From: a virus
Reading direction: 5' to 3' (one strand)
Virus genome (UHGV): UHGV-0168755
DNA: 11,681 nucleotides
The notes under the pieces were generated by a model, which saw nothing but the letters and a program-made list of their open reading frames with translations, had not been told where the DNA came from and did no database searches. Both the position numbers and the translations under genes were made by a program. Shown piece by piece: positions 1 through 11,681 of the stretch. Position 1 is the stretch's first letter; each line of letters begins with the position of its first letter.

Positions 1-50
1 TACGAGATGTCTTAGGGTCTCGTGGGCTCGGAGATGTGTATAAGAGACAG
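1..50. other. Illumina Nextera adapter (i7 index plus transposase mosaic end); library artefact, not biological
   Basis: Sequence TACGAGAT-GTCTTAGG-GTCTCGTGGGCTCGG-AGATGTGTATAAGAGACAG matches the Nextera read-2 adapter with the 19-nt Tn5 mosaic end; its exact reverse complement is at the 3' end of the window. Confidence 0.95.
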
Positions 51-593: not shown

Positions 594-977
594 TTACTCA
601 TCCTCAATGACTGATGATTCGGTTTCAACATAACGTTCTACATCGTACCACACCCCACCCGACATAACGCGTGCTTGGATGATGATACGGTAACGTACAT
701 CGGTATCCGGTAAATATTCCCAGGTTGTTTCTACTTCAACCCCTTCAGGAAAAACATGTTCGTAAAGCGTGGTTAAGTCTGTTTTCACCCGATTGGCTAA
801 GCCGTCGGGATCTTGAGCAAACATTTGCTTTGCTTTTGCAAGCGACCGCACATTACCTTGATAAATTTGCGATTGGCTATACCCTGCTTCCGTGTAATGG
901 TTCATCATTTCACGAATACGTTCACGGGGTGTTTTTGCCCAGCCGCGTGTAGAAACCGTGCCTACTGCTATCGCCAT
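594..977 (-). CDS. hypothetical protein (127 aa)
   Basis: ATG start at 975-977 preceded by AGGAG with 6-nt spacer; sits just downstream of an intrinsic terminator; stop tightly coupled to the next gene. Confidence 0.6.
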   Translation of the reverse strand: MAIAVGTVSTRGWAKTPRERIREMMNHYTEAGYSQSQIYQGNVRSLAKAKQMFAQDPDGLANRVKTDLTTLYEHVFPEGVEVETTWEYLPDTDVRYRIIIQARVMSGGVWYDVERYVETESSVIEDE

Positions 978-1054: not shown

Positions 1055-1642
1055 TTAGCACGAAGCGCCGAGTTCAGAGCACGGATCTTCGTCTTCCCAA
1101 TCAAAACTCCGCATACGTGCCCAGTTGATTTGCATGTCAACCTGCTCTACGCGTGTGAGTTTATTGGATCGATCTTCGTTGGATACCCAGTTCCAAATAC
1201 GATCTTCATCGTACTCGTTGGACATACCCGACGTTACTTCACGGAAGTTATCGTCCGTATGCATATACGCCGAACCACGGAAGTTATCGATTTTCGAATA
1301 CCCGTTCTCGTAACCGGTCGCCATGTTGTTATTGTACAATTGTCGATATTCAGGCAACGCCATTAGCAACGGCTGTAAGGTTGCGTTTGCAAACTGGAAT
1401 TGCCCAATCTTCTCCAATTGACGTACAACATCAGTCGCATCGCTATGTTGTACTTTGCGTGCGGCTGCATACATCTCACGGAAACGCTCTAATGAAATTA
1501 ACTCATTACATTTTCGTTTAACGCTTTCGATCATGTCGGGAGCAAAGGCGTTAATATCGAAATTGTCTCTGAAATAGCGATACATCCCACTATTTTCAGT
1601 TTGTCGTGTCCAGATGGTCCCGCCTAAGTTCCACATGCCCAT
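1055..1642 (-). CDS. hypothetical protein (195 aa), acidic C-terminus; last gene of the beta' transcription unit
   Basis: ATG at 1640-1642 lies 3 nt after tandem stops TAA-TGA (1646-1651) that end the beta' exon-2 frame; followed by the terminator at 1017-1052. I see no beta' motifs in it. Confidence 0.55.
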   Translation of the reverse strand: MGMWNLGGTIWTRQTENSGMYRYFRDNFDINAFAPDMIESVKRKCNELISLERFREMYAAARKVQHSDATDVVRQLEKIGQFQFANATLQPLLMALPEYRQLYNNNMATGYENGYSKIDNFRGSAYMHTDDNFREVTSGMSNEYDEDRIWNWVSNEDRSNKLTRVEQVDMQINWARMRSFDWEDEDPCSELGASC

Positions 1643-1648
1643 GTTTCA

Positions 1649-1900
1649 TTACCCCGCCATTAAAACTAGTTCTGAGTCAAGCGCGATACCTGCTTCCAGA
1701 TCTTCTTCAGTATCCTGGAAGAAACGGTTTATGTTGCTGATGTTCTCGTTATGGAGAATCATACAGCTCGAAACCTCATCCACGTTCGTGCTTGACATAA
1801 AGCCGTTATCTGGGCGATAAGCCATGCCCAGTTCCATTTCAATCTGGTCGATTGCTAATCTGCATTGTAACTGGTCGCCATCAAAATCCTGTATGTCCAC
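1649..1900 (-). CDS. multisubunit RNA polymerase beta'-like N-terminal subunit, exon 2 (catalytic DFDGDQ segment); 3' splice site within about 1895-1925
   Basis: Translation ...DIQDFDGDQLQCRLAIDQ...PDNG... contains the universal beta' Mg-binding motif (N)ADFDGD (codons at 1874-1888). The ORF-track start is a GTG that is probably internal to the spliced reading frame. Ends with tandem stops TAA TGA. Confidence 0.7.
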   Translation of the reverse strand: MDIQDFDGDQLQCRLAIDQIEMELGMAYRPDNGFMSSTNVDEVSSCMILHNENISNINRFFQDTEEDLEAGIALDSELVLMAG

Positions 1901-2262
1901 TCCAATCCTTTTGGAGCAGGTGTGCTAAGACACCCTCCCATGCTTTCACATGGGCACAGACTATATCATAACCGTAGGTAACATTACCCGTAGGTCTCCC
2001 CCACTTCGCCGCTAAACTAAGCAGCTACTCTACTCGGTTTTACCCTTTCGATAGTCGTTGAACGATTTTCACCGCTGCTGATTATCCATTATCACGACCC
2101 TTAGCATTATTGGTTAGCATAGGTCATCTTACAAATTATTTCTGACTTTCGTCACCCTATCGGGATCGTAAGCTTTAGGAGTTACCAGCAATTCAGGGGA
2201 TACGCACTAGAGGTTTCCCGTCTAGTGGGCCAACATTTAGCATTTGGTGCTTTGATGACACG
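1898..2262 (-). ncRNA. group I self-splicing intron (ORF-less, about 330-400 nt) interrupting the beta' gene; boundaries approximate
   Basis: Read on the minus-strand sense: P4/P5 region GACGGGAAACCUCUAGUGCGUAUCCCCUG (2194-2223), R/P7 5' strand GUUCAACGACUAUC (2050-2063), S/P7 3' strand AUGAUAUAGUCUG (1957-1969), P9 hairpin GCCCAUG-UGAAAG-CAUGGG (1937-1955), then two small hairpins before candidate terminal G at 1898-1900. Beta' homology stops before this and resumes at DFDGD after it. Confidence 0.7.
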
Positions 2263-3606
2263 ATCAGAAATACGCAGAGAACATTGTGTTACATCTGTCA
2301 GTACCGATGCAATAAACAACGTCTGAATAGAAAGCTGAACCAATGTTGGGTTACGTAGAACTTCCAACATTAAACCGAATCCACCGGGGGATTCTTTAAT
2401 CAGCTCATTAATAATTTCATGTACCAACGGTACATACTGCATTGCCGCAAATGCAATGATACGTTCGCACTGCCGTGGTGTATAATCACGACGACCCAGC
2501 TTGTTCTCAATGTGAACGCTCGCCAACGGAACCAACCAACGCCAAGGCGCAATCACTTTCAACGCATCGTGAGGTTCAGAGATAGGAGAGATAGTCACAC
2601 GTCCGCCCCACGGTACGTGTGTTGACCCGAGTTTTGCCCGATAGAACCCAGGTTTACCTTCCATCACTTCCTGACGATGGTCAATATAGAAATACGCAAG
2701 TTGACGATTCGCTTTGATTGCGCGACGAATAATAAATCGCGGATCGATACGACGTGCATTCGTGTACAGCAACGCCACATTTTTTACTGCGTCGATAGCG
2801 CTGGTGTATACGGGATCGATAAAGATACCCTGTCGACGTTCCTCCGTAACGATCAGTTTCGACGAAATAATCGGAAGATGCCTTGGAAAGAATGTGAACG
2901 ATTGCTCTTGAAAGAACTCACGCCATTCTAAGCGTACACGCTCACTCTCATAACGGTTATTTTTCGTTGGTGGATAAATCTCCTTCCAAACTTCCGGGGA
3001 CGTGAGGATATTAAAGACGGTTCGATGATGGTCGATAAAGTTTCGAATACCGCGTTCGAATCCGTGCTCAATGAGTATTCTTTTCACTACCCGAGCTCGT
3101 GTCCCTTCGTCCTTTTCTGGTCGATAGTACGGATCGATTAGCCATAGAAGCAAATCAGAACCGCGCTCTACCGTCACCTTGTTACGATTGAACTTTTTCA
3201 GCTTAGAACCAAAGAAAGCATTGAAGAGAGACCAAAAACGTGGATTGATAAAGTTGCCCATCTCATCGGGAGCACGTAACCAAACTTCGGACGTAATCCG
3301 GTGTTCAGAAACAACGTGTCCACAGTGCGGGCAACGTAGCCCAAGATTGTAACGATGGGTAATAGGTGATTCGCAGGTCAAACTGCAAATAGGAGCCGAG
3401 TTGAGTGTCTCATCAACGATTCGGTTTTGAAGTATCTGGTTAATCATCTCTGACGCTTCGATGGTATCCATCGTTACAGCAACGTCATTGATAATAATCG
3501 GCGGTTTGTAGCCTTTTTCCTCCGCTTCTTGTATACAGTCACGTAACATTTTATCGTGACTAATTAATCGCCCTGAAATCCCGTAATATTCTAGTTTATG
3601 TTCCAC
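2182..3606 (-). CDS. multisubunit RNA polymerase beta'-like N-terminal subunit, exon 1 (ORF as called; the last roughly 20-35 codons before the TAA at 2182 are probably intron read-through)
   Basis: GTG start at 3604-3606 with GAGGA 6 nt upstream. Zinc finger CSLTC-x13-CPHCGHVV (compare E. coli CxC-x12-CEKCGVEV), GGRVTISPI (compare GRSVITVGP) and LRNPTLVQLSIQ (compare NRAPTLHRLGIQ), in the same order as bacterial beta'. Confidence 0.8.
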   Translation of the reverse strand: MEHKLEYYGISGRLISHDKMLRDCIQEAEEKGYKPPIIINDVAVTMDTIEASEMINQILQNRIVDETLNSAPICSLTCESPITHRYNLGLRCPHCGHVVSEHRITSEVWLRAPDEMGNFINPRFWSLFNAFFGSKLKKFNRNKVTVERGSDLLLWLIDPYYRPEKDEGTRARVVKRILIEHGFERGIRNFIDHHRTVFNILTSPEVWKEIYPPTKNNRYESERVRLEWREFFQEQSFTFFPRHLPIISSKLIVTEERRQGIFIDPVYTSAIDAVKNVALLYTNARRIDPRFIIRRAIKANRQLAYFYIDHRQEVMEGKPGFYRAKLGSTHVPWGGRVTISPISEPHDALKVIAPWRWLVPLASVHIENKLGRRDYTPRQCERIIAFAAMQYVPLVHEIINELIKESPGGFGLMLEVLRNPTLVQLSIQTLFIASVLTDVTQCSLRISDRVIKAPNAKCWPTRRETSSAYPLNCW

Positions 3607-3619
3607 GCCGAATCCTCAA

Positions 3620-3662
3620 CAAAAAAAGAGAGGGAAGGGACAGGGGGTTTTCCCCTGTCCCT
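3620..3662 (-). terminator. candidate intrinsic terminator/attenuator between the 615-aa gene and the beta' gene
   Basis: 10-11 bp stem GGGACAGGGG/CCCCTGTCCC (3637-3661) with 5-nt loop, followed on the minus strand by UUCCCUCUCUUUUUUUG. The U-run starts about 9 nt after the stem, so the call is moderate. It abuts the beta' RBS. Confidence 0.45.
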
Positions 3663-3690
3663 CAACTACTGCTTACTACTTACCAACTTA

Positions 3691-5538
3691 TCAGAAAGTC
3701 GGACGCCAGTCAGTTGCAGCGAAGGACATACCGAAATCGCTACCAAATGCGTTCGGGCCGCTACCAGACAGTGCGAAGTTCTCATTACCCGTGTTAACAA
3801 ACACAGAGTGAGTGAGGCTGTTCGCTGCGGTAACACCGTTCACCTGGAAGTTGCAGTTTTCGGTGATGTATTCCACCAGTGCTTTACCGAACATCGGGTT
3901 GATTGCCAGATCAGACGCTTCGCCAGTTACCTGCGGCTGTTTGCTACCGAACATGGACGCAGCCATTTTCAGCAGGTACAGACGCTGGTCACGCGCATTC
4001 AGATAGCGGTGAGAGTAGGACTGTGCACTAATGTAGTCGATCGCATCGCGCTGGTTGTCGCCCACTTTAGTCAGAGCGGAAACCAAGTCCATATCCTGGA
4101 AGCTACGTTTCTGGCTGTTGCTGAAATACTGACCAGAGATGGTCGGGCAACCGGCGATAACAACATGTTTGCACTCAAAGTTGTTGACATTTCCCAGCAT
4201 CGCTTTGAAGCGGGTGCTGAACTTAGTCGCGCCGTTGCTGGCCATGTTATCCAGGATGTTGAACAGGGTATACAGTGCGTTGGTGTTACCCATCCCGATT
4301 TCGCTCAGGAGAGTAGACAGACCACCAATACCGTTACCTGCACGATGGTTCACCACCAGTGCCGCAGTCGGATTAGCGAAAGTATCCAGGCATTTCTCGA
4401 TAACTTCACGGTTACCGTCGATTTTGCTCAGGTCAGGTTTTTCGCTGCCCCATTCTACATACTCCAGAACGCGGGAGAAGCGGCGATCGGTTTTGTTCAG
4501 CGACTGCATGAAACGTTCACGCCATCCGCCGATAGTGGCGATTTGTGCGAACGCGGCCAGTTCAATCAGCTGACGTTCGATAGGTGCCATTGCCCCAGAG
4601 GATTGAGAATCCATCAGAGAAACAACCACTTCGGCTTCCAGCTGACGCAGGTCCTGAGTACCGTTGGTCAGAGTTTGCGGTTTACCTTTATGGCGGAGGT
4701 TGATGTAACCAACACCTGCAACGCTCGGATAATTCTGGAGGCGTTCAGAAGAGAACAGCGTCGGGTTATTATCGTTATTGCCGGTGCGGGAATGGTCAAC
4801 CACAACCATCAGGTCAGCACGTTGTGCAGAACCGTTAACGTCAGTTACAGAACCTTCTTCAACGACACTGACTTGTGCAGTGAAGCGATCAGAGCGGGTC
4901 ATTTTCAGGTAGCCCAGGTAGCCGGAATGACGACCGAAGATACCCAGTGCAATCTGGCCCATGAGCTGGTTAGCCCATTCTTCGTTCATGGTTTTACCCA
5001 GTTCCGGTACGCAGTTCATTACCATGAACTGTACGCTCGGCAGATTGTGCTGAGTTGCAATCTGGTTAGTGATGTTGTTCATCACACCTTCTTGACTGAA
5101 CAGCTGTGCCAGGGTGTAGTAGTTTTCTTTACCGTTGATTTCGTAGAAACGGATGGATTGGCCGTGTTCGAAGAACAGGATACCGTAGAGCCATTCGTTA
5201 TGGTTATCACCAGACGGACCAGCCACATATGCAGCAGAACCCATTTCAGAGTTGATGCCGTCAATGACGCCCCAACGGAAGTTACGCAGGTAGGTGTTCT
5301 TCTCTGCCATCTTCTCAATCAGACTGGTGAACTGAGAAGCAGTGGACACAAAGGACATATACCCAAAAGCTTTATCGAAGGTGGAAATGTTTTTAGACAT
5401 TCCACCAAAAGCGTTGGCCGCATTGGTGTTATCCATAGTAGGAGCTCCCGCACCGCCGAAAGACGGAATTGGATCTGCGGCGGAACCAGCAGCACCAGTC
5501 ACAACGTCGTTTTGATTGTCAATAAACTCTTTAGCCAT
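3691..5538 (-). CDS. highly expressed 615-aa protein; candidate phage-nucleus shell protein (chimallin), alternatively a major virion structural protein
   Basis: ATG start with AAGGA RBS. Codon usage is visibly shifted to E. coli-type optimal codons (CTG, CGT, GGT, ACC, AAC, GAA) compared with neighbours. Gly/Ala-rich flexible N-terminal segment. Lies immediately upstream of, and co-oriented with, the beta' N-terminal subunit gene. Identity is inferred from size and position, not from recognised sequence. Confidence 0.7.
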   Translation of the reverse strand: MAKEFIDNQNDVVTGAAGSAADPIPSFGGAGAPTMDNTNAANAFGGMSKNISTFDKAFGYMSFVSTASQFTSLIEKMAEKNTYLRNFRWGVIDGINSEMGSAAYVAGPSGDNHNEWLYGILFFEHGQSIRFYEINGKENYYTLAQLFSQEGVMNNITNQIATQHNLPSVQFMVMNCVPELGKTMNEEWANQLMGQIALGIFGRHSGYLGYLKMTRSDRFTAQVSVVEEGSVTDVNGSAQRADLMVVVDHSRTGNNDNNPTLFSSERLQNYPSVAGVGYINLRHKGKPQTLTNGTQDLRQLEAEVVVSLMDSQSSGAMAPIERQLIELAAFAQIATIGGWRERFMQSLNKTDRRFSRVLEYVEWGSEKPDLSKIDGNREVIEKCLDTFANPTAALVVNHRAGNGIGGLSTLLSEIGMGNTNALYTLFNILDNMASNGATKFSTRFKAMLGNVNNFECKHVVIAGCPTISGQYFSNSQKRSFQDMDLVSALTKVGDNQRDAIDYISAQSYSHRYLNARDQRLYLLKMAASMFGSKQPQVTGEASDLAINPMFGKALVEYITENCNFQVNGVTAANSLTHSVFVNTGNENFALSGSGPNAFGSDFGMSFAATDWRPTF

Positions 5539-5582
5539 TTTACTTAATCCTTATAAGGTTTAATACAATTGTAGTGTTGGTT

Positions 5583-7040: not shown

Positions 7041-9353
7041 TCACTCGTCGTCAAAAGCCTCTTCTTCATCATCGTCTTCTTCGTCGTCACCTGCCCTCTC
7101 TGATTTCTTAACGTATTGTACTTCTGCTAATTCCTTGTACAGTTCGTCTTCTTCCTCGACTTTATCGTAGAAATCCGATAACAGTCTCATCCTGTTCTTA
7201 TCCATCATGAACACACCTAAGCATTCCAGAATGTGATAGTAAGGTTCAACTGTAGAGAAAGCCGTGCGACGAATGTCCGCGATAGCGATCAGTTCTTTAG
7301 GAATACCGTAGTTTTCCACCAAATGTTCTGGCAGAATCAACGTTTTGTATTTACGGTAGTTCGTCTCTTCAAACCACGCCGCTGCACCGTTTTTGATAAT
7401 CGGATCTTCTATACTGTCAACCCATTCTTTAATCTTCGTTTTGTTTTCCAACGTTACCGGAAGTTTCACAGCATCGTACGGCGGTTCTTCCAAGTAACCA
7501 AACTTCGGACCAAAGATAGCATTATACATTCGGTGATAGTGATAGTTCTTTTCGTCCTTCTCGTTATAAGCTGCACGCTCTTTAATGTTTGTCGTTTTCA
7601 GATACCCTGGATTACCGGAACGAATGGAATCCATAATCGTGTGCTCGATTTGCGCAACCTTTTCCAGTAATGGAATGATTTCAATTTGGTCACCGCGACC
7701 AACAACCTCACACAACCCCTTAATGGTATTCTTAAACTCCTTCATGATAATCGGCGGAATATTCGACGTACGTAAAGACACGCCTTTTACTTCCAACTCG
7801 GGATCTTTCTTCAACTGACCTTCCTGGCCGGTAATCAATGAGAAGTAGTGTTTTGCTTTGGTAGTTAAGGCAAATGAATCGAACTTAAATTCATTTTTCA
7901 TCGCATAAAGGAATAAACGCTCTTTTGCCACACCGATATTTGCAGACATACTCGCCATCAAATGACGTAAGTGTTGTGTAGCAATATAAATCATTGCATT
8001 GGAAACACGAGTCGCTACTTCACCGTAATGTTTACCGGTGTACCAGATTGCCCACCACTGTGCGGTCATCATGGTAGAGTCAGTATCAGATACCACACCA
8101 ACACGACGAACCACATCTGGCATTCTAGCGATATTAATCGGTAGGTTTTTTGTCGTGAGAATATTACGAATCAGTAACGCGTATTTACCGATTGTTTTCT
8201 GCAAGAACACCGCAGAACGAATCAGCTCTTTATAACCTTCTTGCTGATCCCACGGCAAGGGCTTTTTATTACCGTCAAGTTTCTTAACGTCGCTGAACGC
8301 TTTACCCATCGGTACCACGTCAGTGCGGAACTGTGAGATAATAATCTGCATATCGCCGTCGATGGTCTTCTCAGCAGCAGACCAATCCTCATCACTCCAA
8401 CCGTCGGTATCGACTCGCACTTCAGGAGTAATTAACGCGCCAATAAAATCACGCATGAATTTGTCGTTGTACTTCGCCAGGTGGAAAAAGTCACCCATGT
8501 ATACAAACGCTGCACGCGTTAACGGCGAAACATTACTAACATAATGCTCAACGAACTCCATCCCTTCTTCATTCTTAAAGTAGAAGTCTGCGGAGTAATG
8601 GATAACATCCATTACTTCTTCTACGGTCGGATAATGAAGTTCGTACGTCTCCATACATTTCTTAAAGCTGTTCCAATCGGTTAAAGTACCGATAGATAAG
8701 AAATGATCGATAATTCGTGATGGGGTATCGTAATGACGGTTGCCACCTAACAAACGCTCGTTGCCCGCATTGCCAAACGAGGTTGCAGTACGGCAGGTGG
8801 ACGTCAGCACAGAGTGCGAAGACTGGTTGAAGATAATGGTATACGGAGAAGAGAATGCGCCCGACATCCCGTTGTTCAGTGTCTTAACCGCGTTCTGTTC
8901 GTTCTTTTTGTTGATCTTTAATACTTCATTACCAGCAGCAGCAGCGGCAAACATCTCTTTCTTTACCGCAGCACGTTTCGCTACGTTGGCTGCTGTGAAT
9001 TCCGACAGCTTAGAACGTTTGATGTGTTCTGGAATATAAAAAGTTAACGAAGGTGCAGAGATGATCTGTTTATCAATAACGGTTTTAAATAGCTTATCAA
9101 CAGTTGTATATTTTTCCTCACGATCGCCCGTTTTCTGGTTACGCACCCACATCTTACACACGGGGGACTCGGTGGATAACTCACCGCCCGGTGCAACAAG
9201 TGCATCGACTTCTTGACGGCAAAACTCTAAAGGATATTTTTGTGCTGTCACGTTATGAATGTATAACGCAACCTGTTCACGGTAGGCATCGTTGATATCA
9301 ATATCGCGATGGTATTCGTCTACCGATAAACGAAAAGGAGAATTGTATTCCAC
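7041..9353 (-). CDS. hypothetical 770-aa protein with polyacidic C-terminus (DDEEDDDEEEAFDDE); function unknown
   Basis: GTG start at 9351-9353 with GAGG 6 nt upstream; first gene after the terminator at 9408-9446. Contains VVSDTDS and ALLIRNILT segments that loosely resemble DNA polymerase family B motifs C and B, but no convincing catalytic motif A. Confidence 0.75.
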   Translation of the reverse strand: MEYNSPFRLSVDEYHRDIDINDAYREQVALYIHNVTAQKYPLEFCRQEVDALVAPGGELSTESPVCKMWVRNQKTGDREEKYTTVDKLFKTVIDKQIISAPSLTFYIPEHIKRSKLSEFTAANVAKRAAVKKEMFAAAAAGNEVLKINKKNEQNAVKTLNNGMSGAFSSPYTIIFNQSSHSVLTSTCRTATSFGNAGNERLLGGNRHYDTPSRIIDHFLSIGTLTDWNSFKKCMETYELHYPTVEEVMDVIHYSADFYFKNEEGMEFVEHYVSNVSPLTRAAFVYMGDFFHLAKYNDKFMRDFIGALITPEVRVDTDGWSDEDWSAAEKTIDGDMQIIISQFRTDVVPMGKAFSDVKKLDGNKKPLPWDQQEGYKELIRSAVFLQKTIGKYALLIRNILTTKNLPINIARMPDVVRRVGVVSDTDSTMMTAQWWAIWYTGKHYGEVATRVSNAMIYIATQHLRHLMASMSANIGVAKERLFLYAMKNEFKFDSFALTTKAKHYFSLITGQEGQLKKDPELEVKGVSLRTSNIPPIIMKEFKNTIKGLCEVVGRGDQIEIIPLLEKVAQIEHTIMDSIRSGNPGYLKTTNIKERAAYNEKDEKNYHYHRMYNAIFGPKFGYLEEPPYDAVKLPVTLENKTKIKEWVDSIEDPIIKNGAAAWFEETNYRKYKTLILPEHLVENYGIPKELIAIADIRRTAFSTVEPYYHILECLGVFMMDKNRMRLLSDFYDKVEEEDELYKELAEVQYVKKSERAGDDEEDDDEEEAFDDE

Positions 9354-9407
9354 AGCTGACCTCTAAAAAGGCAGTTTAACTCGGCTATAAGGAGGGCGGG
9401 TAACGTG

Positions 9408-9446
9408 AAAAAAAAAAGAAAAAAAAAACCCTCTCCGAAGAGAGGG
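9408..9446 (-). terminator. strong intrinsic terminator ending the upstream four-gene operon
   Basis: 7-bp stem CCCTCTC-CGAA-GAGAGGG (9429-9446) followed immediately on the minus strand by a run of about 20 U (plus-strand A-run 9408-9428). Confidence 0.8.
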
Positions 9447-9454
9447 CATTCCGA

Positions 9455-9868
9455 TTAACCTGCGGCGTTTTCAATGATTTCGATTTCCACATCATTAAAG
9501 CCGCGCGCTGCCAACGCAGCTTCCAGATCTTCTTTCTCTTGTTTGTTGTCAAGCTGCACAACAAAACGAGCCGTCAAACTGGTAATTACTCTTACTTCAC
9601 GTACCCACGCATCTGCCGCAACGCCCACTTTACCCGTAGAATCACGGAACAACATGTAGTTGTACGCCGTAAGATCATTCGTCGGTTGCCCTACCAGCGA
9701 CGAATAAATGTTCTTCTGGATAGCAGCCAGATCTTCGCCTGCGGTTTTTGCGAATTCGTAACCGACTTTCGACGCGAGTACACGAACTCGCGTTTCGTTG
9801 CCTTTCAATGGGGTATCGTAAACAATGTTTACAATAGACCCTGGTTCAATGCTACTAAAATCAAACAT
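9455..9868 (-). CDS. hypothetical protein (137 aa from ATG 9866-9868; the ORF track starts 2 codons earlier at a GTG)
   Basis: GAGGAG RBS 5 nt upstream of the ATG; start overlaps the TGA of the upstream gene in ATGTTTGA (translational coupling); followed by the strong terminator. Confidence 0.7.
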   Translation of the reverse strand: MFDFSSIEPGSIVNIVYDTPLKGNETRVRVLASKVGYEFAKTAGEDLAAIQKNIYSSLVGQPTNDLTAYNYMLFRDSTGKVGVAADAWVREVRVITSLTARFVVQLDNKQEKEDLEAALAARGFNDVEIEIIENAAG

Positions 9869-10475
9869 TGTCACTCCTCAACATTGTGATGTCCAGATGG
9901 AACGTAACGTAAACACCCGAAACGGTACCTAAGTTGTCGTGTAACGATAAGTTTAAACACAAGCTCTCAATACCGCTTTTGTGCGCGGTACGAAAGAGCT
10001 GGATAGCGGGTAGACAATCGTTCTCGTAAATCTCGAGAATACTATCACGAAGAATTTCTATCGCGTGTTCACGCAACACATCCCAAGAAGACCCGCCTTG
10101 TATTTTACACAACTCATAGATTTCCAGAAGGGGTCGCATATCCTCAATCATGTCTTCCGTATAACTGGTTTCCATCATTGAGTTAAATTCCCACTGCCGG
10201 TATTCAGCATTTAACCGTTTCAGGTAACTGTCTAACTCTTTCAGTTCCCTTTTATTGCCAGGAAAGCTACACGCTTCCGATAGCTCACTGATCGCGGTAT
10301 TGATATATCGCGTTGCTTCATCCGTCGTCTCTATCGTTGTAGGAAAAGGCACTCGCATACAGCGAAAGCGCATTAGGGTTCTTACTAACTTATCTTTGTA
10401 GAAATCGCCATCCGTGGCGTATTCCAGTAACCCTAAGTTCGGACGGATGAAATGATCACCCCGTACTTTGTACAT
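9861..10475 (-). CDS. hypothetical protein (204 aa)
   Basis: ATG at 10473-10475 directly abuts the TGA of the upstream gene (10476-10478); AGAGG RBS 5 nt upstream. Confidence 0.7.
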   Translation of the reverse strand: MYKVRGDHFIRPNLGLLEYATDGDFYKDKLVRTLMRFRCMRVPFPTTIETTDEATRYINTAISELSEACSFPGNKRELKELDSYLKRLNAEYRQWEFNSMMETSYTEDMIEDMRPLLEIYELCKIQGGSSWDVLREHAIEILRDSILEIYENDCLPAIQLFRTAHKSGIESLCLNLSLHDNLGTVSGVYVTFHLDITMLRSDNV

Positions 10476-10928
10476 TCAAACCTCTATGCAAATAAATCCA
10501 CTCCCAATCTCATTCATAAACAAAGATACTTTAGTTTTCTTCGATCCTTTTTCAGGCGTTAACCCGGACTGACACCAGAGTGTTTCCACCAGATTACGGA
10601 TACGAAAATAGTCCACATCCTTTTCTATTTCAAACTGCAACAAAGAATGGGAGAATATGCGAACTTCATCGACTGGGAACAGTTGTGCTAATTGCGTGAA
10701 AATAAATTGGTGATTGGGTGGGATGAACGTCAGAAACGTTTCACCCTCACCCAAACGACGTACCACCGAACGTACGGATTCCTCTGCATACTTCGCCAGG
10801 AACCAGTACGCTATGTGTGGTGCTACCGAACCAATATCCGCATTGTCAACCCGTGAATGTAAACGCTCCGGGAGATACACTTCCGAAATTTCCATAAACA
10901 GTTTCATTGCAGACCAACACCAAATCAT
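10476..10928 (-). CDS. hypothetical protein (about 150 aa); start uncertain, overlaps the upstream gene by 50-98 nt or is joined to it by a frameshift
   Basis: ORF-track start at 10943 is a TTG. In-frame ATGs at 10926-10928 (GGGGA upstream), 10907 and 10895 all lie inside the 3' end of ORF 10846-11352. Confidence 0.5.
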   Translation of the reverse strand: MIWCWSAMKLFMEISEVYLPERLHSRVDNADIGSVAPHIAYWFLAKYAEESVRSVVRRLGEGETFLTFIPPNHQFIFTQLAQLFPVDEVRIFSHSLLQFEIEKDVDYFRIRNLVETLWCQSGLTPEKGSKKTKVSLFMNEIGSGFICIEV

Positions 10929-11352
10929 TGAACGTTTCCCCAATCCAACGTGTCAAAGGACCAGGAAACATAGAATTAATCAACGCAGCTAATCCTGTCT
11001 GCGTCACGAGTTCGTTTTGCAGTATCTCCGCCGCATGGCAAATCGCTACCATGTGGTTATTCTCATCCCCTACTGTGGAGAGAAACGTGATACTTTCTAC
11101 AGTTACGCCAGGGATCGTATTTTCGTCGTATGCGGTGACGGTAACCAGCTCTTTTAGCAGCTCAGGGTTACGTGCCTTCGCTGCGATAATGTACGCAGTA
11201 CCAAAGTCTTCATAGAGTCTACGGACATCGTGCTCGTAGACGTCTAAACGACCTGCTTCTAAAACGTCTACCAATACGTCCCGTACTGCTTCGTAGAATC
11301 GGGTTCTGCCGTAATTTTGTACCTCTTGTGCGACGTAATAGACATACTGCAT
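10846..11352 (-). CDS. hypothetical protein (168 aa)
   Basis: ATG at 11350-11352 overlaps the TAA of the upstream partial gene (TAATG arrangement). Confidence 0.65.
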   Translation of the reverse strand: MQYVYYVAQEVQNYGRTRFYEAVRDVLVDVLEAGRLDVYEHDVRRLYEDFGTAYIIAAKARNPELLKELVTVTAYDENTIPGVTVESITFLSTVGDENNHMVAICHAAEILQNELVTQTGLAALINSMFPGPLTRWIGETFNDLVLVCNETVYGNFGSVSPGAFTFTG

Positions 11353-11634
11353 TATAAGACCTTCCCAGCCAGGTTACCCAGCAACAGTTCTACAATCGTT
11401 TGCATATTCGGCGTCAGTTGTTGTAACAAAGCCGGTTCTTCGTATTCTGGGTACTTTACTTGCTCGTACCTTACCAGAAACTCTACCGCACCTGGCTTTT
11501 GTGCACAATAACGCGCACCTATCCACTGGCCGTATCGTGTAAACCAATACGGCTCTGTCGACACCGCCACCACAAAACTCTTCGCCACCTCCTGTGTCGA
11601 TTTTATATATTCCATTGCACGTTCACCATCTAAC
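11352..11634 (-). CDS. hypothetical protein, 5'-partial or starting at ATG about 11613-11615; the ORF-track N-terminus MGSEMCIRDR is adapter-encoded
   Basis: The frame is open from the insert edge. The first 10 codons of the track ORF are translated from the adapter CTGTCTCTTATACACATCTCCGAGCCCAC. A candidate real start, ATG (MEYIKSTQ...), has a weak GGTGA upstream. Confidence 0.5.
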
Positions 11635-11681
11635 CTGTCTCTTATACACATCTCCGAGCCCACGAGACCCTAAGACATCTC
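11635..11681. other. Illumina Nextera adapter (mosaic end CTGTCTCTTATACACATCT + CCGAGCCCACGAGAC + index CCTAAGAC + ATCTC); library artefact
   Basis: Exact reverse complement of positions 1-50; canonical adapter sequence. Position may be off by 1 nt. Confidence 0.95.

What the first reader, a model, noticed from the sequence alone, without database searches (positions are those of the whole stretch)
1649..3606. Highly divergent, split multisubunit RNAP beta' N-terminal subunit (phage non-virion/virion RNAP type)
The encoded protein keeps the beta' zinc finger, the GR..I and NPTL..L.IQ segments and the DFDGDQ catalytic loop, but is otherwise very diverged from bacterial beta'. It terminates with tandem stops TAA-TGA only about 80 residues after DFDGD, so it is an N-terminal beta' fragment of roughly 530 aa after splicing. 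Multisubunit RNAPs built from separately encoded beta/beta' fragments are known from phiKZ-like jumbo phages. I see no beta' motifs (bridge helix, trigger loop) in the downstream ORFs 1055-1642 and 594-977, so the C-terminal beta' part is presumably encoded elsewhere.
Basis: partly seen in the sequence, partly recalled or inferred. Interest (0 to 1): 0.6.

Follow-up and report, generated by a model that had tools for sequence, protein, structure and literature searches.

The report
Jumbo-phage RNA polymerase beta-prime fragment, intron-split
This is the N-terminal catalytic piece of a giant phage's own multisubunit RNA polymerase (the counterpart of phiKZ gp55). Its gene is interrupted by a self-splicing intron right before the active-site DFDGD motif. 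It is a well-known kind of gene in a little-described Salmonella jumbo phage.

Summary
The minus-strand gene 3606..1649 has exon 1 (3606..2239), a 350-nt group I intron (2238..1889; Rfam RF00028 above its gathering score) and exon 2 (1888..1649). Splicing gives a 535-aa protein.

Phage contigs 97% identical at the DNA level lack exactly these 350 nt. They encode a 535-aa, 99%-identical protein with ...APNADFDGDQ... uninterrupted.

The protein matches PHROG 2987 collinearly across both exons. Its best solved relative is phiKZ gp55, the beta' N-terminal subunit of the non-virion RNA polymerase (E 2e-39 alone, 7e-128 as a family profile). AR9 non-virion beta', cyanobacterial gamma and bacterial beta' follow. 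A structure model gives the same ranking.

The zinc ribbon, GR..I, RNPTL..L.IQ and NADFDGDQ motifs are conserved family-wide and collinear with bacterial beta'.

Context also fits the non-virion enzyme. A diverged chimallin gene lies upstream. Near-identical contigs and SPN3US carry gp65/66/68/70, beta and gp74-like beta'-C genes downstream.

It is a new member of a known kind, of modest interest. The intron sits in a recurrent insertion hot spot within the catalytic-loop codons.

The parts
2239..3606 (-). Exon 1 of the beta' N-terminal subunit gene: GTG start, codons 1-456, ending ...V-I-K-A-P-N-A (GCT).
   Evidence: ORF list. PHROG 2987 profile positions 1-417. The boundary is fixed by intron-less alleles.
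1889..2238 (-). Group I self-splicing intron, 350 nt, without an ORF. The exon 1 frame runs 18 codons into it, to a TAA at 2184..2182. The last intron base is G (omega-G, 1889).
   Evidence: Rfam RF00028: 56.6 bits against a gathering score of 50, E 1.9e-12, full model 1-253. It is absent as a clean 350-nt block from 97%-identical contigs L009-L012. 43 of 88 predicted pairs show compensatory changes among 5 related introns.
1649..1888 (-). Exon 2: codons 457-535, starting GAT TTT GAT GGC GAC CAG (DFDGDQ), plus the TAA stop. A second stop, TGA, follows at 1648..1646.
   Evidence: PHROG 2987 profile positions 418-477.
2229..2241 (-). Proposed P1 hairpin that defines the 5' splice site: GCU|AA - AUG - UUGGC, with the exon's last U paired to G.
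   Evidence: Read from the sequence. The homologous hairpin in phage EC001 is GGU|UC-GAAAA-GAGCC. In the Vibrio phage 2 TSL-2019 intron the exon's GAU pairs with GUC. The guide sequence therefore co-varies with the exon. Inference; not tested biochemically.
3322..3387 (-). Codons for the Cys4 zinc ribbon (C74, C78, C92, C95) of the clamp region.
   Evidence: Conservation in the family alignment. It aligns weakly with the S. aureus beta' zinc ribbon, residues 60-85.
2590..2604 (-). Codons G335-R-V-T-I339, the 'GR..I' segment that corresponds to bacterial beta' ...SGRSVI...
   Evidence: R336 and I339 are invariant. The segment aligns with S. aureus beta' 'YSGRSVIA'.
2323..2355 (-). Codons R418-N-P-T-L-V-Q-L-S-I-Q428, corresponding to bacterial beta' NRAPTLHRLGIQ.
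   Evidence: R418, N419, P420 and L422 are invariant. The alignment with S. aureus beta' is.
1874..2244 (-). The catalytic loop N455-A456 | D457-F-D-G-D461, split by the intron between A456 (2241..2239) and D457 (1888..1886).
   Evidence: KAPNADFDGDQL is identical in phiKZ gp55.
3613..3617 (-). Ribosome-binding site GAGGA, 6 nt upstream of the GTG start.
   Evidence: Sequence read.
3621..3663 (-). Terminator-like hairpin (12 pairs, 8 of them G-C) followed by a T run, between the upstream chimallin-like gene and this gene.
   Evidence: sequence.

Best explanation
The gene encodes the N-terminal beta' subunit of a phiKZ-type non-virion multisubunit RNA polymerase (the gp55 orthologue). The phage is a nucleus-forming (Chimalliviridae, SPN3US/phiEaH2-like) jumbo phage associated with Salmonella.

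The protein supplies the clamp with its zinc ribbon. It also supplies the beta' double-psi beta-barrel, whose NADFDGD loop holds the catalytic magnesium. By analogy with phiKZ, it works only when assembled with separately encoded partners: a gp74-like beta' C-terminal subunit (bridge helix, trigger loop), beta-like subunits, and a gp68-like fifth subunit.

The mRNA must first lose a 350-nt group I intron that lies between codons A456 and D457. Unspliced message would give a 474-aa product that ends in the intron and lacks the catalytic aspartates.

Shown here: homology, fold, motif conservation, exact intron boundaries and synteny.
Inferred: self-splicing in vivo, subunit assembly, middle/late-gene transcription and non-virion status.
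For: Protein identity:
- PHROG 2987 'RNA polymerase beta subunit' matches collinearly over both exons.
- PDB by sequence: phiKZ gp55 at E 2.1e-39 over residues 70-498, including an identical KAPNADFDGDQL; next is AR9 non-virion beta'.
- Family profile against PDB: gp55 7.3e-128, AR9 1e-36, bacterial beta' and cyanobacterial gamma about 1e-19 to 1e-21.
- AlphaFold model of the 99%-identical P0001 (pLDDT 83): Foldseek ranks the phiKZ non-virion polymerase chain A first (E 1.5e-30), then AR9, cyanobacterial gamma and bacterial beta'.
- Conserved motifs.

Non-virion assignment by synteny:
- The upstream 615-aa gene has the chimallin fold. The top 9 PDB hits are all chimallin/PhuN (E 1e-21 to 3e-17); the next hit is at E 0.16. 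This mirrors phiKZ gp54-gp55.
- Downstream in the near-identical contig L009 lie homologues of phiKZ gp65, gp66, gp68 and gp70, then a beta-like 745-aa gene.
- In SPN3US a gp74 homologue (E 9e-39) follows.
- Subunit roles in phiKZ are taken from PMC8287921.

Intron: Rfam above its gathering score, clean absence from 97%-identical alleles, an intron-less 535-aa protein and covariation.
Against: - No expression, splicing or proteomic data exist for this phage.
- Pfam's RpoC-type model PF00623 is below its curated threshold on this sequence (20 against 25.3 bits).
- The N-terminal roughly 290 residues match bacterial beta' by sequence only weakly, at the zinc ribbon.
- No virion-type subunit was compared directly (no phiKZ or SPN3US virion paralogue was fetched). 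The non-virion assignment rests on best hits and gene order.
- A long-read transcriptome of phiKZ did not detect splicing of its own predicted introns, including the one in gp55 (PMC10914365). The solved gp55 chain is nevertheless named as the fusion of PHIKZ055 and PHIKZ056.1.
Confidence: 0.93

Rival explanations
1. It is the beta' N-terminal subunit of the virion-packaged RNA polymerase (phiKZ gp178-type paralogue), not of the non-virion enzyme.
For: Both jumbo-phage polymerases have beta' split after the double-psi beta-barrel, so length and motifs alone do not distinguish them (review PMC7598289).
Against: The best solved matches, by sequence and by fold, are the non-virion subunits of phiKZ and AR9. 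Gene order matches the phiKZ gp50-gp74 non-virion block, with chimallin immediately upstream. tblastn found a single place per genome in almost all of 288 phage records, so the second paralogue is too distant to be confused with it.
Confidence: 0.03
2. The 350-nt insert is not spliced and the gene is a disrupted pseudogene, or encodes two separate polypeptides of 474 and 83 aa, as several database records annotate it.
For: Public records annotate the two exons as separate genes, for example EC001 'beta subunit 1' and 'beta subunit 2'. The ONT transcriptome of phiKZ did not see splicing of its predicted introns.
Against: - The insert meets the Rfam group I gathering score over the full model and shows compensatory base-pair changes.
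- It has U before the 5' site and G as its last base.
- Its removal restores the frame exactly to the sequence of intron-less alleles.
- The split would separate N-A from DFDGD inside one strand-loop of an essential catalytic domain.
- The same intron-containing allele is found in a 223-kb contig and in a second metagenome.
Confidence: 0.03
3. The beta' motifs are isolated chance matches in an unrelated protein.
For: Pfam gives no hit on the separate exons.
Against: Full-length collinear homology to gp55 at E 7e-128 and to bacterial beta' at about 1e-20. The fold search agrees.
Confidence: 0.005

Closest known systems
phiKZ gp55 (PHIKZ055 + PHIKZ056.1), beta' N-terminal subunit of the non-virion RNA polymerase (PDB 7OGP/7OGR/8QUE)
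   Same: Full-length collinear homology, Cys4 zinc ribbon, RNPTL and KAPNADFDGDQL motifs. It ends shortly after the double-psi beta-barrel. A chimallin gene lies immediately upstream. The gene is interrupted by a group I intron in the catalytic-loop codons.
   Different: Foldseek reports 24% identity. The second zinc-ribbon Cys is spaced CxxxC here and CxC in phiKZ. The phiKZ intron sits 3 nt upstream (N|A rather than A|D) and carries the HNH endonuclease gene gp56; the intron here is 350 nt and has no ORF.
SPN3US ACQ60_gp243 / Erwinia phage phiEaH2 'RNA polymerase beta subunit' (PHROG 2987)
   Same: 67-68% identical, same length, same neighbours on both sides.
   Different: SPN3US and phiEaH2 have no intron. 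SPN3US-species phages EC001, JN03, SPLA3 and Proteus phage 7 carry a related intron (about 72% identical) at the same codon boundary.
Cyanobacterial RNA polymerase gamma subunit (RpoC1) and bacterial beta' residues about 60-500
   Same: Same domain content: zinc ribbon, clamp, double-psi beta-barrel with NADFDGD. A natural split occurs at a similar place (PMC7598289).
   Different: 13-18% identity in the Foldseek alignments to gamma and bacterial beta'. The phage enzyme has no alpha or omega partners and uses a gp68-type fifth subunit (PMC8287921).
Phage group I introns of the T4 td / T-even type (Rfam RF00028)
   Same: Core helices; U.G at the 5' splice site and a terminal G. Short, highly similar core segments match T-even-like phages. 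The insertion lies in active-site codons of an essential gene.
   Different: No homing-endonuclease ORF in this copy. The host gene is an RNA polymerase subunit rather than a nucleotide-metabolism or DNA polymerase gene.

Membership tests
phiKZ-type non-virion RNAP beta' N-terminal subunit (gp55 family, PHROG 2987) | Full-length collinear sequence homology to gp55 and family members | tested here: met
   PHROG 2987 at E 7e-142 and 2e-14 on consecutive profile positions. gp55 at E 2e-39 alone and 7e-128 as a profile, covering chain residues 20-495 of 508.
phiKZ-type non-virion RNAP beta' N-terminal subunit (gp55 family, PHROG 2987) | Polypeptide ends shortly after the double-psi beta-barrel, with bridge helix and trigger loop on a separate gp74-like protein | tested here: met
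   The protein ends 74 residues after DFDGD. Downstream window ORFs have no RNAP hits. In SPN3US the gp74 homologue lies about 12 kb downstream (E 9e-39). The partner gene was not seen for this exact phage, because the window and the fetched flanks end before it.
phiKZ-type non-virion RNAP beta' N-terminal subunit (gp55 family, PHROG 2987) | Gene order of the non-virion block: chimallin upstream; gp65/66/68/70 and beta-like genes downstream | tested here: met
   Chimallin fold for the upstream 615-aa protein. Homologues of gp65, gp66, gp68 and gp70, plus a 745-aa beta-like gene with a faint Rpb2_6 hit, lie in the 97%-identical contig L009.
phiKZ-type non-virion RNAP beta' N-terminal subunit (gp55 family, PHROG 2987) | Absent from virions; assembles with four other subunits into an active enzyme | not testable with these tools
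   Needs virion proteomics and enzyme purification.
Multisubunit RNAP beta' (RpoC/Rpb1) superfamily | Double-psi beta-barrel with the invariant NADFDGD magnesium-binding loop, preceded by the GR..I and NRAPTL segments in order | tested here: met
   Profile against PDB: E. coli beta' 329-494, T. thermophilus 605-772, E about 1e-19 to 4e-21. Residue-level alignment to S. aureus beta'. Invariant columns.
Multisubunit RNAP beta' (RpoC/Rpb1) superfamily | Pfam RNA_pol_Rpb1_2 (PF00623) at its curated threshold | tested here: not met
   20.0 bits against a cut-off of 25.3, E 8.8e-4, residues 418-465 of the spliced protein. Several family members do carry a precomputed PF00623 hit. This reflects divergence, not absence of homology.
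Multisubunit RNAP beta' (RpoC/Rpb1) superfamily | N-terminal Cys4 zinc ribbon | tested here: met
   C74, C92 and C95 in 39/39 sequences; the second Cys at position 76 or 78 in 39/39. Metal binding itself was not tested.
Group I intron (Rfam RF00028) | Covariance-model match at the gathering score | tested here: met
   56.6 bits against 50, model positions 1-253 of 253. Related introns score 52-69 bits.
Group I intron (Rfam RF00028) | Precise boundaries: U before the 5' splice site, paired with G in P1; terminal G; removal restores the reading frame | tested here: met
   GCU|AAAUG...ACAG|GAU. Intron-less alleles lack exactly 1889..2238. The intron-less protein P0001 has 535 aa.
Group I intron (Rfam RF00028) | Secondary structure supported by compensatory changes | tested here: met
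   RNAalifold on 5 introns: 88 pairs, 43 with changes on both sides. This is a small sample of related sequences.
Group I intron (Rfam RF00028) | Self-splicing activity | not testable with these tools
   Needs in vitro transcription with GTP and magnesium, or RT-PCR.
Mobile (homing) group I intron | Intron-encoded homing endonuclease | tested here: not met
   No ORF of 40 aa or more lies within 1889..2238 apart from the exon 1 read-through. The related intron of Proteus phage 7 carries a 286-aa ORF with an HNH-type signature, judged by eye, in the P1 loop.
Virion RNAP beta' N-terminal subunit (phiKZ gp178 type) | Closest relatives and gene neighbourhood are those of the virion enzyme | tested here: not met
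   The closest solved relatives are non-virion subunits, and the neighbourhood is the gp50-gp74 block. No direct comparison with gp178 was made.

The most novel reading that the evidence does not exclude
The 15 nt that encode N-A-D-F-D-G-D of the non-virion beta' subunit may be a recurrent intron battleground in jumbo phages.

Four different intervening-sequence insertion points occur within these codons: N|A in phiKZ; A|D here and in the SPN3US-type, Proteus and Raoultella phages; D|F in Vibrio phage 2 TSL-2019; and G|D as a second, unclassified insert in Klebsiella phiKp_32 and Raoultella VB_ZK_P1, which leaves a 12-nt mini-exon.

Intron-plus and intron-minus alleles also coexist within one 97%-identical Salmonella phage lineage. 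The ORF-less intron here could do more than ride along. It could block the target site of intron endonucleases from co-infecting phages, as in the PhiPA3 gp210 competition system. It could also gate production of the non-virion polymerase.
Probability: 0.15. Interest if true: 0.55.

Novelty: new member of a known kind. Interest (0 to 1): 0.22.

Why it matters
It places this anonymous 11.7-kb metagenome contig in the nucleus-forming jumbo phages. It also gives a correct gene model: one 535-aa catalytic subunit, where public annotation has a truncated 474-aa protein plus an 83-aa 'hypothetical protein'.

The biology of split phage RNA polymerases is already established. The practical value is therefore corrected annotation and an example of intron presence/absence polymorphism at a polymerase active site. 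That polymorphism could be used to study intron homing and competition among Salmonella jumbo phages.

Tried and rejected
- Pfam on the two exon products separately gave no RNAP hit. On the spliced protein it gave only a sub-threshold PF00623 hit. I therefore relied on PHROGs, PDB profile searches and fold comparison.
- My first guess at the splice sites was a 5' site after AAU, or a 3' site after GUG giving ...APN-DIQDFDGD. I rejected it once PHROG positions, phiKZ gp55, P0001 and the intron-less DNA alleles all required GCU|...CAG|GAU.
- Rfam's own alignment of P1 pairs poorly. I proposed a different 5-bp hairpin from comparison with EC001, the Raoultella phage VB_ZK_P1 and the Vibrio phage.
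- The 615-aa neighbour showed no similarity to phiKZ gp54 by BLASTP. Neither the sequence nor its profile hit any PDB chain. Only the fold search identified it as chimallin.
- The downstream 195-aa and 127-aa ORFs gave no informative similarity to the phiKZ gp57-gp64 region. They remain conserved hypotheticals (PHROGs 3254 and 3294).
- The second intervening sequence in the Raoultella phage gave no Rfam hit at E 0.1 or better.
- The SPFM1 record (L007) looked scrambled around this gene and was dropped.
Full report
**Anatomy.** The minus strand carries an ORF 3606..2182 (474 aa, GTG start) and an ORF 1900..1649 (83 aa), separated by about 280 nt. A GAGGA lies 6 nt upstream of the GTG. A strong terminator-like hairpin (3663..3635, then a T run) closes the preceding gene.

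Rfam finds one family above its gathering score in the whole window: a group I intron at 2248..1937 on the minus strand (56.6 bits against 50, E 1.9e-12, full-length model).

**Splice sites.** PHROG 2987 ('RNA polymerase beta subunit') matches exon 1 residues 8-456 on profile positions 1-417. It matches exon 2 residues 5-64 on positions 418-477. The junction must therefore read ...APNA|DFDGDQ.... This corresponds to GCU|AAAUG...ACAG|GAU: a U before the 5' site, a terminal G, a 350-nt intron (2238..1889) and a 535-aa product.

Three independent checks agree:
- phiKZ gp55 reads KAPNADFDGDQL at this place.
- A database protein, P0001, is 535 aa long and 99% identical, and is uninterrupted there.
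- Four contigs carrying P0001 align to the window at about 97% DNA identity, with one clean gap of exactly 1889..2238.

The exon 1 frame continues 18 codons into the intron before a TAA. Unspliced message would therefore give a product without the catalytic aspartates.

**The intron as RNA.** Related introns occur at the same codon boundary in several phages:
- SPN3US-species phages EC001, JN03 and SPLA3, at about 72% identity. SPN3US itself lacks the intron and reads ...MANG|DFDGD.
- Proteus phage 7 and SaP7. The Proteus phage 7 copy carries a 286-aa ORF with an HNH-type signature (judged by eye) in the P1 loop.
- Klebsiella phiKp_32 and Raoultella VB_ZK_P1.

All score above the Rfam threshold. 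An RNAalifold consensus of five of them has 88 pairs, 43 with compensatory changes.

The proposed P1 hairpin is GCU|AA-AUG-UUGGC here and GGU|UC-GAAAA-GAGCC in EC001. In the Vibrio phage, exon GAU pairs with GUC. The guide sequence therefore tracks the exon's last three bases.

Intron-plus alleles carry U at the last exon position where the intron-less SPN3US has A. The window differs from its intron-less relatives by a cluster of mostly synonymous changes right next to the insertion (2254, 2251, 2245 | 1886, 1883). That is 5 changes in about 22 nt, against a background of about 2.6%. This is what co-conversion during homing, or selection for P1/P10 pairing, would leave.

**The protein.**
- By sequence, the best solved relative is phiKZ gp55, the beta' N-terminal subunit of the non-virion polymerase (E 2.1e-39). 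AR9 non-virion beta' follows.
- A profile of 38 family members gives gp55 7.3e-128, AR9 1e-36, then more than 100 bacterial beta' chains and the cyanobacterial gamma subunit at about 1e-19 to 4e-21. It aligns to E. coli beta' 329-494.
- The residue-level alignment to S. aureus beta' shows the zinc ribbon...SGRSVI......NRAPTLHRLGIQ... and NADFDGDQ in the same order as here.
- In the family alignment, C74, C92, C95, R336, I339, R418-N-P, L422, N455, D457, D459 and G460 are invariant. The second zinc-ribbon cysteine is always present, at one of two positions.
- An AlphaFold model of P0001 (pLDDT 83) retrieves the phiKZ non-virion polymerase chain A (E 1.5e-30), AR9, cyanobacterial gamma and bacterial beta'.
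- Pfam's PF00623 is only sub-threshold.

**Virion or non-virion.** The gene order in the window is: divergent family-B DNA polymerase, a 353-aa gene on the other strand, a 615-aa gene, this gene, then 195-aa and 127-aa genes. It equals that of SPN3US and parallels phiKZ gp50-gp55.

The 615-aa protein has no detectable sequence similarity to phiKZ gp54 or to any PDB chain. Its model nevertheless matches only chimallin/PhuN structures: nine hits at E 1e-21 to 3e-17, with the next hit at 0.16. Laughlin et al. reported a very diverged chimallin in SPN3US (PMC9365700).

Downstream in the 97%-identical contig lie homologues of phiKZ gp65, gp66, gp68 (the fifth subunit) and gp70, then a 745-aa beta-like gene. 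In SPN3US the next gene is a gp74 homologue (E 9e-39), the beta' C-terminal half. phiKZ subunit composition and roles are from PMC8287921. The shared split site after the double-psi beta-barrel is from PMC7598289. I conclude that this is the non-virion enzyme's subunit.

**Provenance.** The window is a whole SPAdes contig (ENA ERZ1026973 NODE_425) with Nextera adapter at both ends. The intron-plus allele is 100% identical in a second metagenome. It is 99.4% identical in a 223-kb contig of a bacterial isolate assembly. Intron-less alleles sit in Salmonella enterica assemblies. This fits the reported persistence of Seoul-like jumbo phages in bacterial isolates (bioRxiv 10.1101/2024.12.31.630880).

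**What is known.** Split beta/beta' subunits of jumbo-phage polymerases, and group I introns in their genes, are established. Examples are phiKZ gp56/gp72/gp179 and PhiPA3 gp210. In phiKZ the gp55 intron lies 3 nt upstream of the site used here and carries an HNH gene. The finding is therefore a correct identification of an ordinary member of a known family.

The one aspect I did not find described is the density of insertion points within the NADFDGD codons. There are four sites across phages, and a 12-nt mini-exon in the Klebsiella and Raoultella phages. The second insert there has no Rfam match, and I did not survey this systematically.

Noticed in passing
window 1-50 and 11632-11681: Both ends of the window are inverted copies of an Illumina Nextera adapter/index primer (…GTCTCGTGGGCTCGGAGATGTGTATAAGAGACAG). 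They match unrelated phage records. They also create the artefactual start 'MGSEMCIRDR' of ORF 11352..11663. The window is an entire assembly contig (NODE_425_length_11681).
   Followed up: yes
window 3691-5538 (-): The 615-aa 'hypothetical' protein just upstream is a very diverged chimallin (phage-nucleus shell protein). Sequence searches find nothing, but its AlphaFold model matches only chimallin/PhuN structures (E 1e-21 to 3e-17, TM about 0.6-0.7). Its SPN3US orthologue is YP_009153316.1 (locus tag ACQ60_gp244). A preprint cites a different accession (YP_009153538) as the SPN3US chimallin. I did not resolve the discrepancy.
   Followed up: partly
window 3598-5547 (+): A 649-aa ORF runs antisense across the whole chimallin gene. 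The minus-strand ORF has strong homologues (PHROG 8316, E 2e-232). The plus-strand ORF was never searched, so I presume it is a shadow ORF.
   Followed up: partly
window 2245-2254 and 1883-1886: Substitutions relative to 97%-identical intron-less alleles cluster immediately either side of the intron (CCA AAT GCT|GAT TTT against CCT AAT GCT|GAC TTC). This is suggestive of a co-conversion tract or of selection for P1/P10 pairing.
   Followed up: partly
L005 (Klebsiella phage phiKp_32) and L006 (Raoultella phage VB_ZK_P1), L006 2162-2485: In these phages the same gene has two intervening sequences in the catalytic loop. One is a group I intron at NA|DFDG. The other is an insert of about 312 nt after DFDG|D. 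Between them lies a 12-nt mini-exon, GATTTTGACGGT. The second insert starts after U and ends in G but has no Rfam match at E 0.1 or better.
   Followed up: partly
L004 (Proteus phage 7) 741-2144: The homologous intron is 1404 nt long. It carries a 286-aa ORF with an HNH-type signature (judged by eye, not searched) between the 5' splice site and the guide sequence (P1 loop). The record annotates exon 1 as 'RNA polymerase alpha subunit' and the rest as hypothetical proteins.
   Followed up: partly
L003 (phiKZ) 9186-10560; L008 (Vibrio phage 2 TSL-2019) 1758-2149: Introns in the same gene use neighbouring but different sites: N|A in phiKZ (with HNH gp56) and D|F in the Vibrio phage. In the Vibrio phage the inferred guide sequence matches its own exon end.
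   Followed up: partly
L002 (phage EC001) 2986-4937; P0001 in Salmonella assemblies: Public annotation splits the intron-containing gene into 'beta subunit 1' and 'beta subunit 2'. It labels the intron-less 535-aa protein in Salmonella enterica assemblies 'hypothetical protein'.
   Followed up: no
window 7041-9353 (-): A 770-aa divergent family-B DNA polymerase (Pfam PF20286, E 6e-280). This is the most conserved gene of the window at the DNA level (about 75% to SPN3US-type phages).
   Followed up: no
window 1055-1642 (-) and 594-977 (-): The two genes downstream of the polymerase subunit are conserved hypotheticals (PHROGs 3254 and 3294) with no RNAP motifs. The 127-aa protein has a weak match (E 0.001) to the phiKZ gp62 region.
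   Followed up: partly
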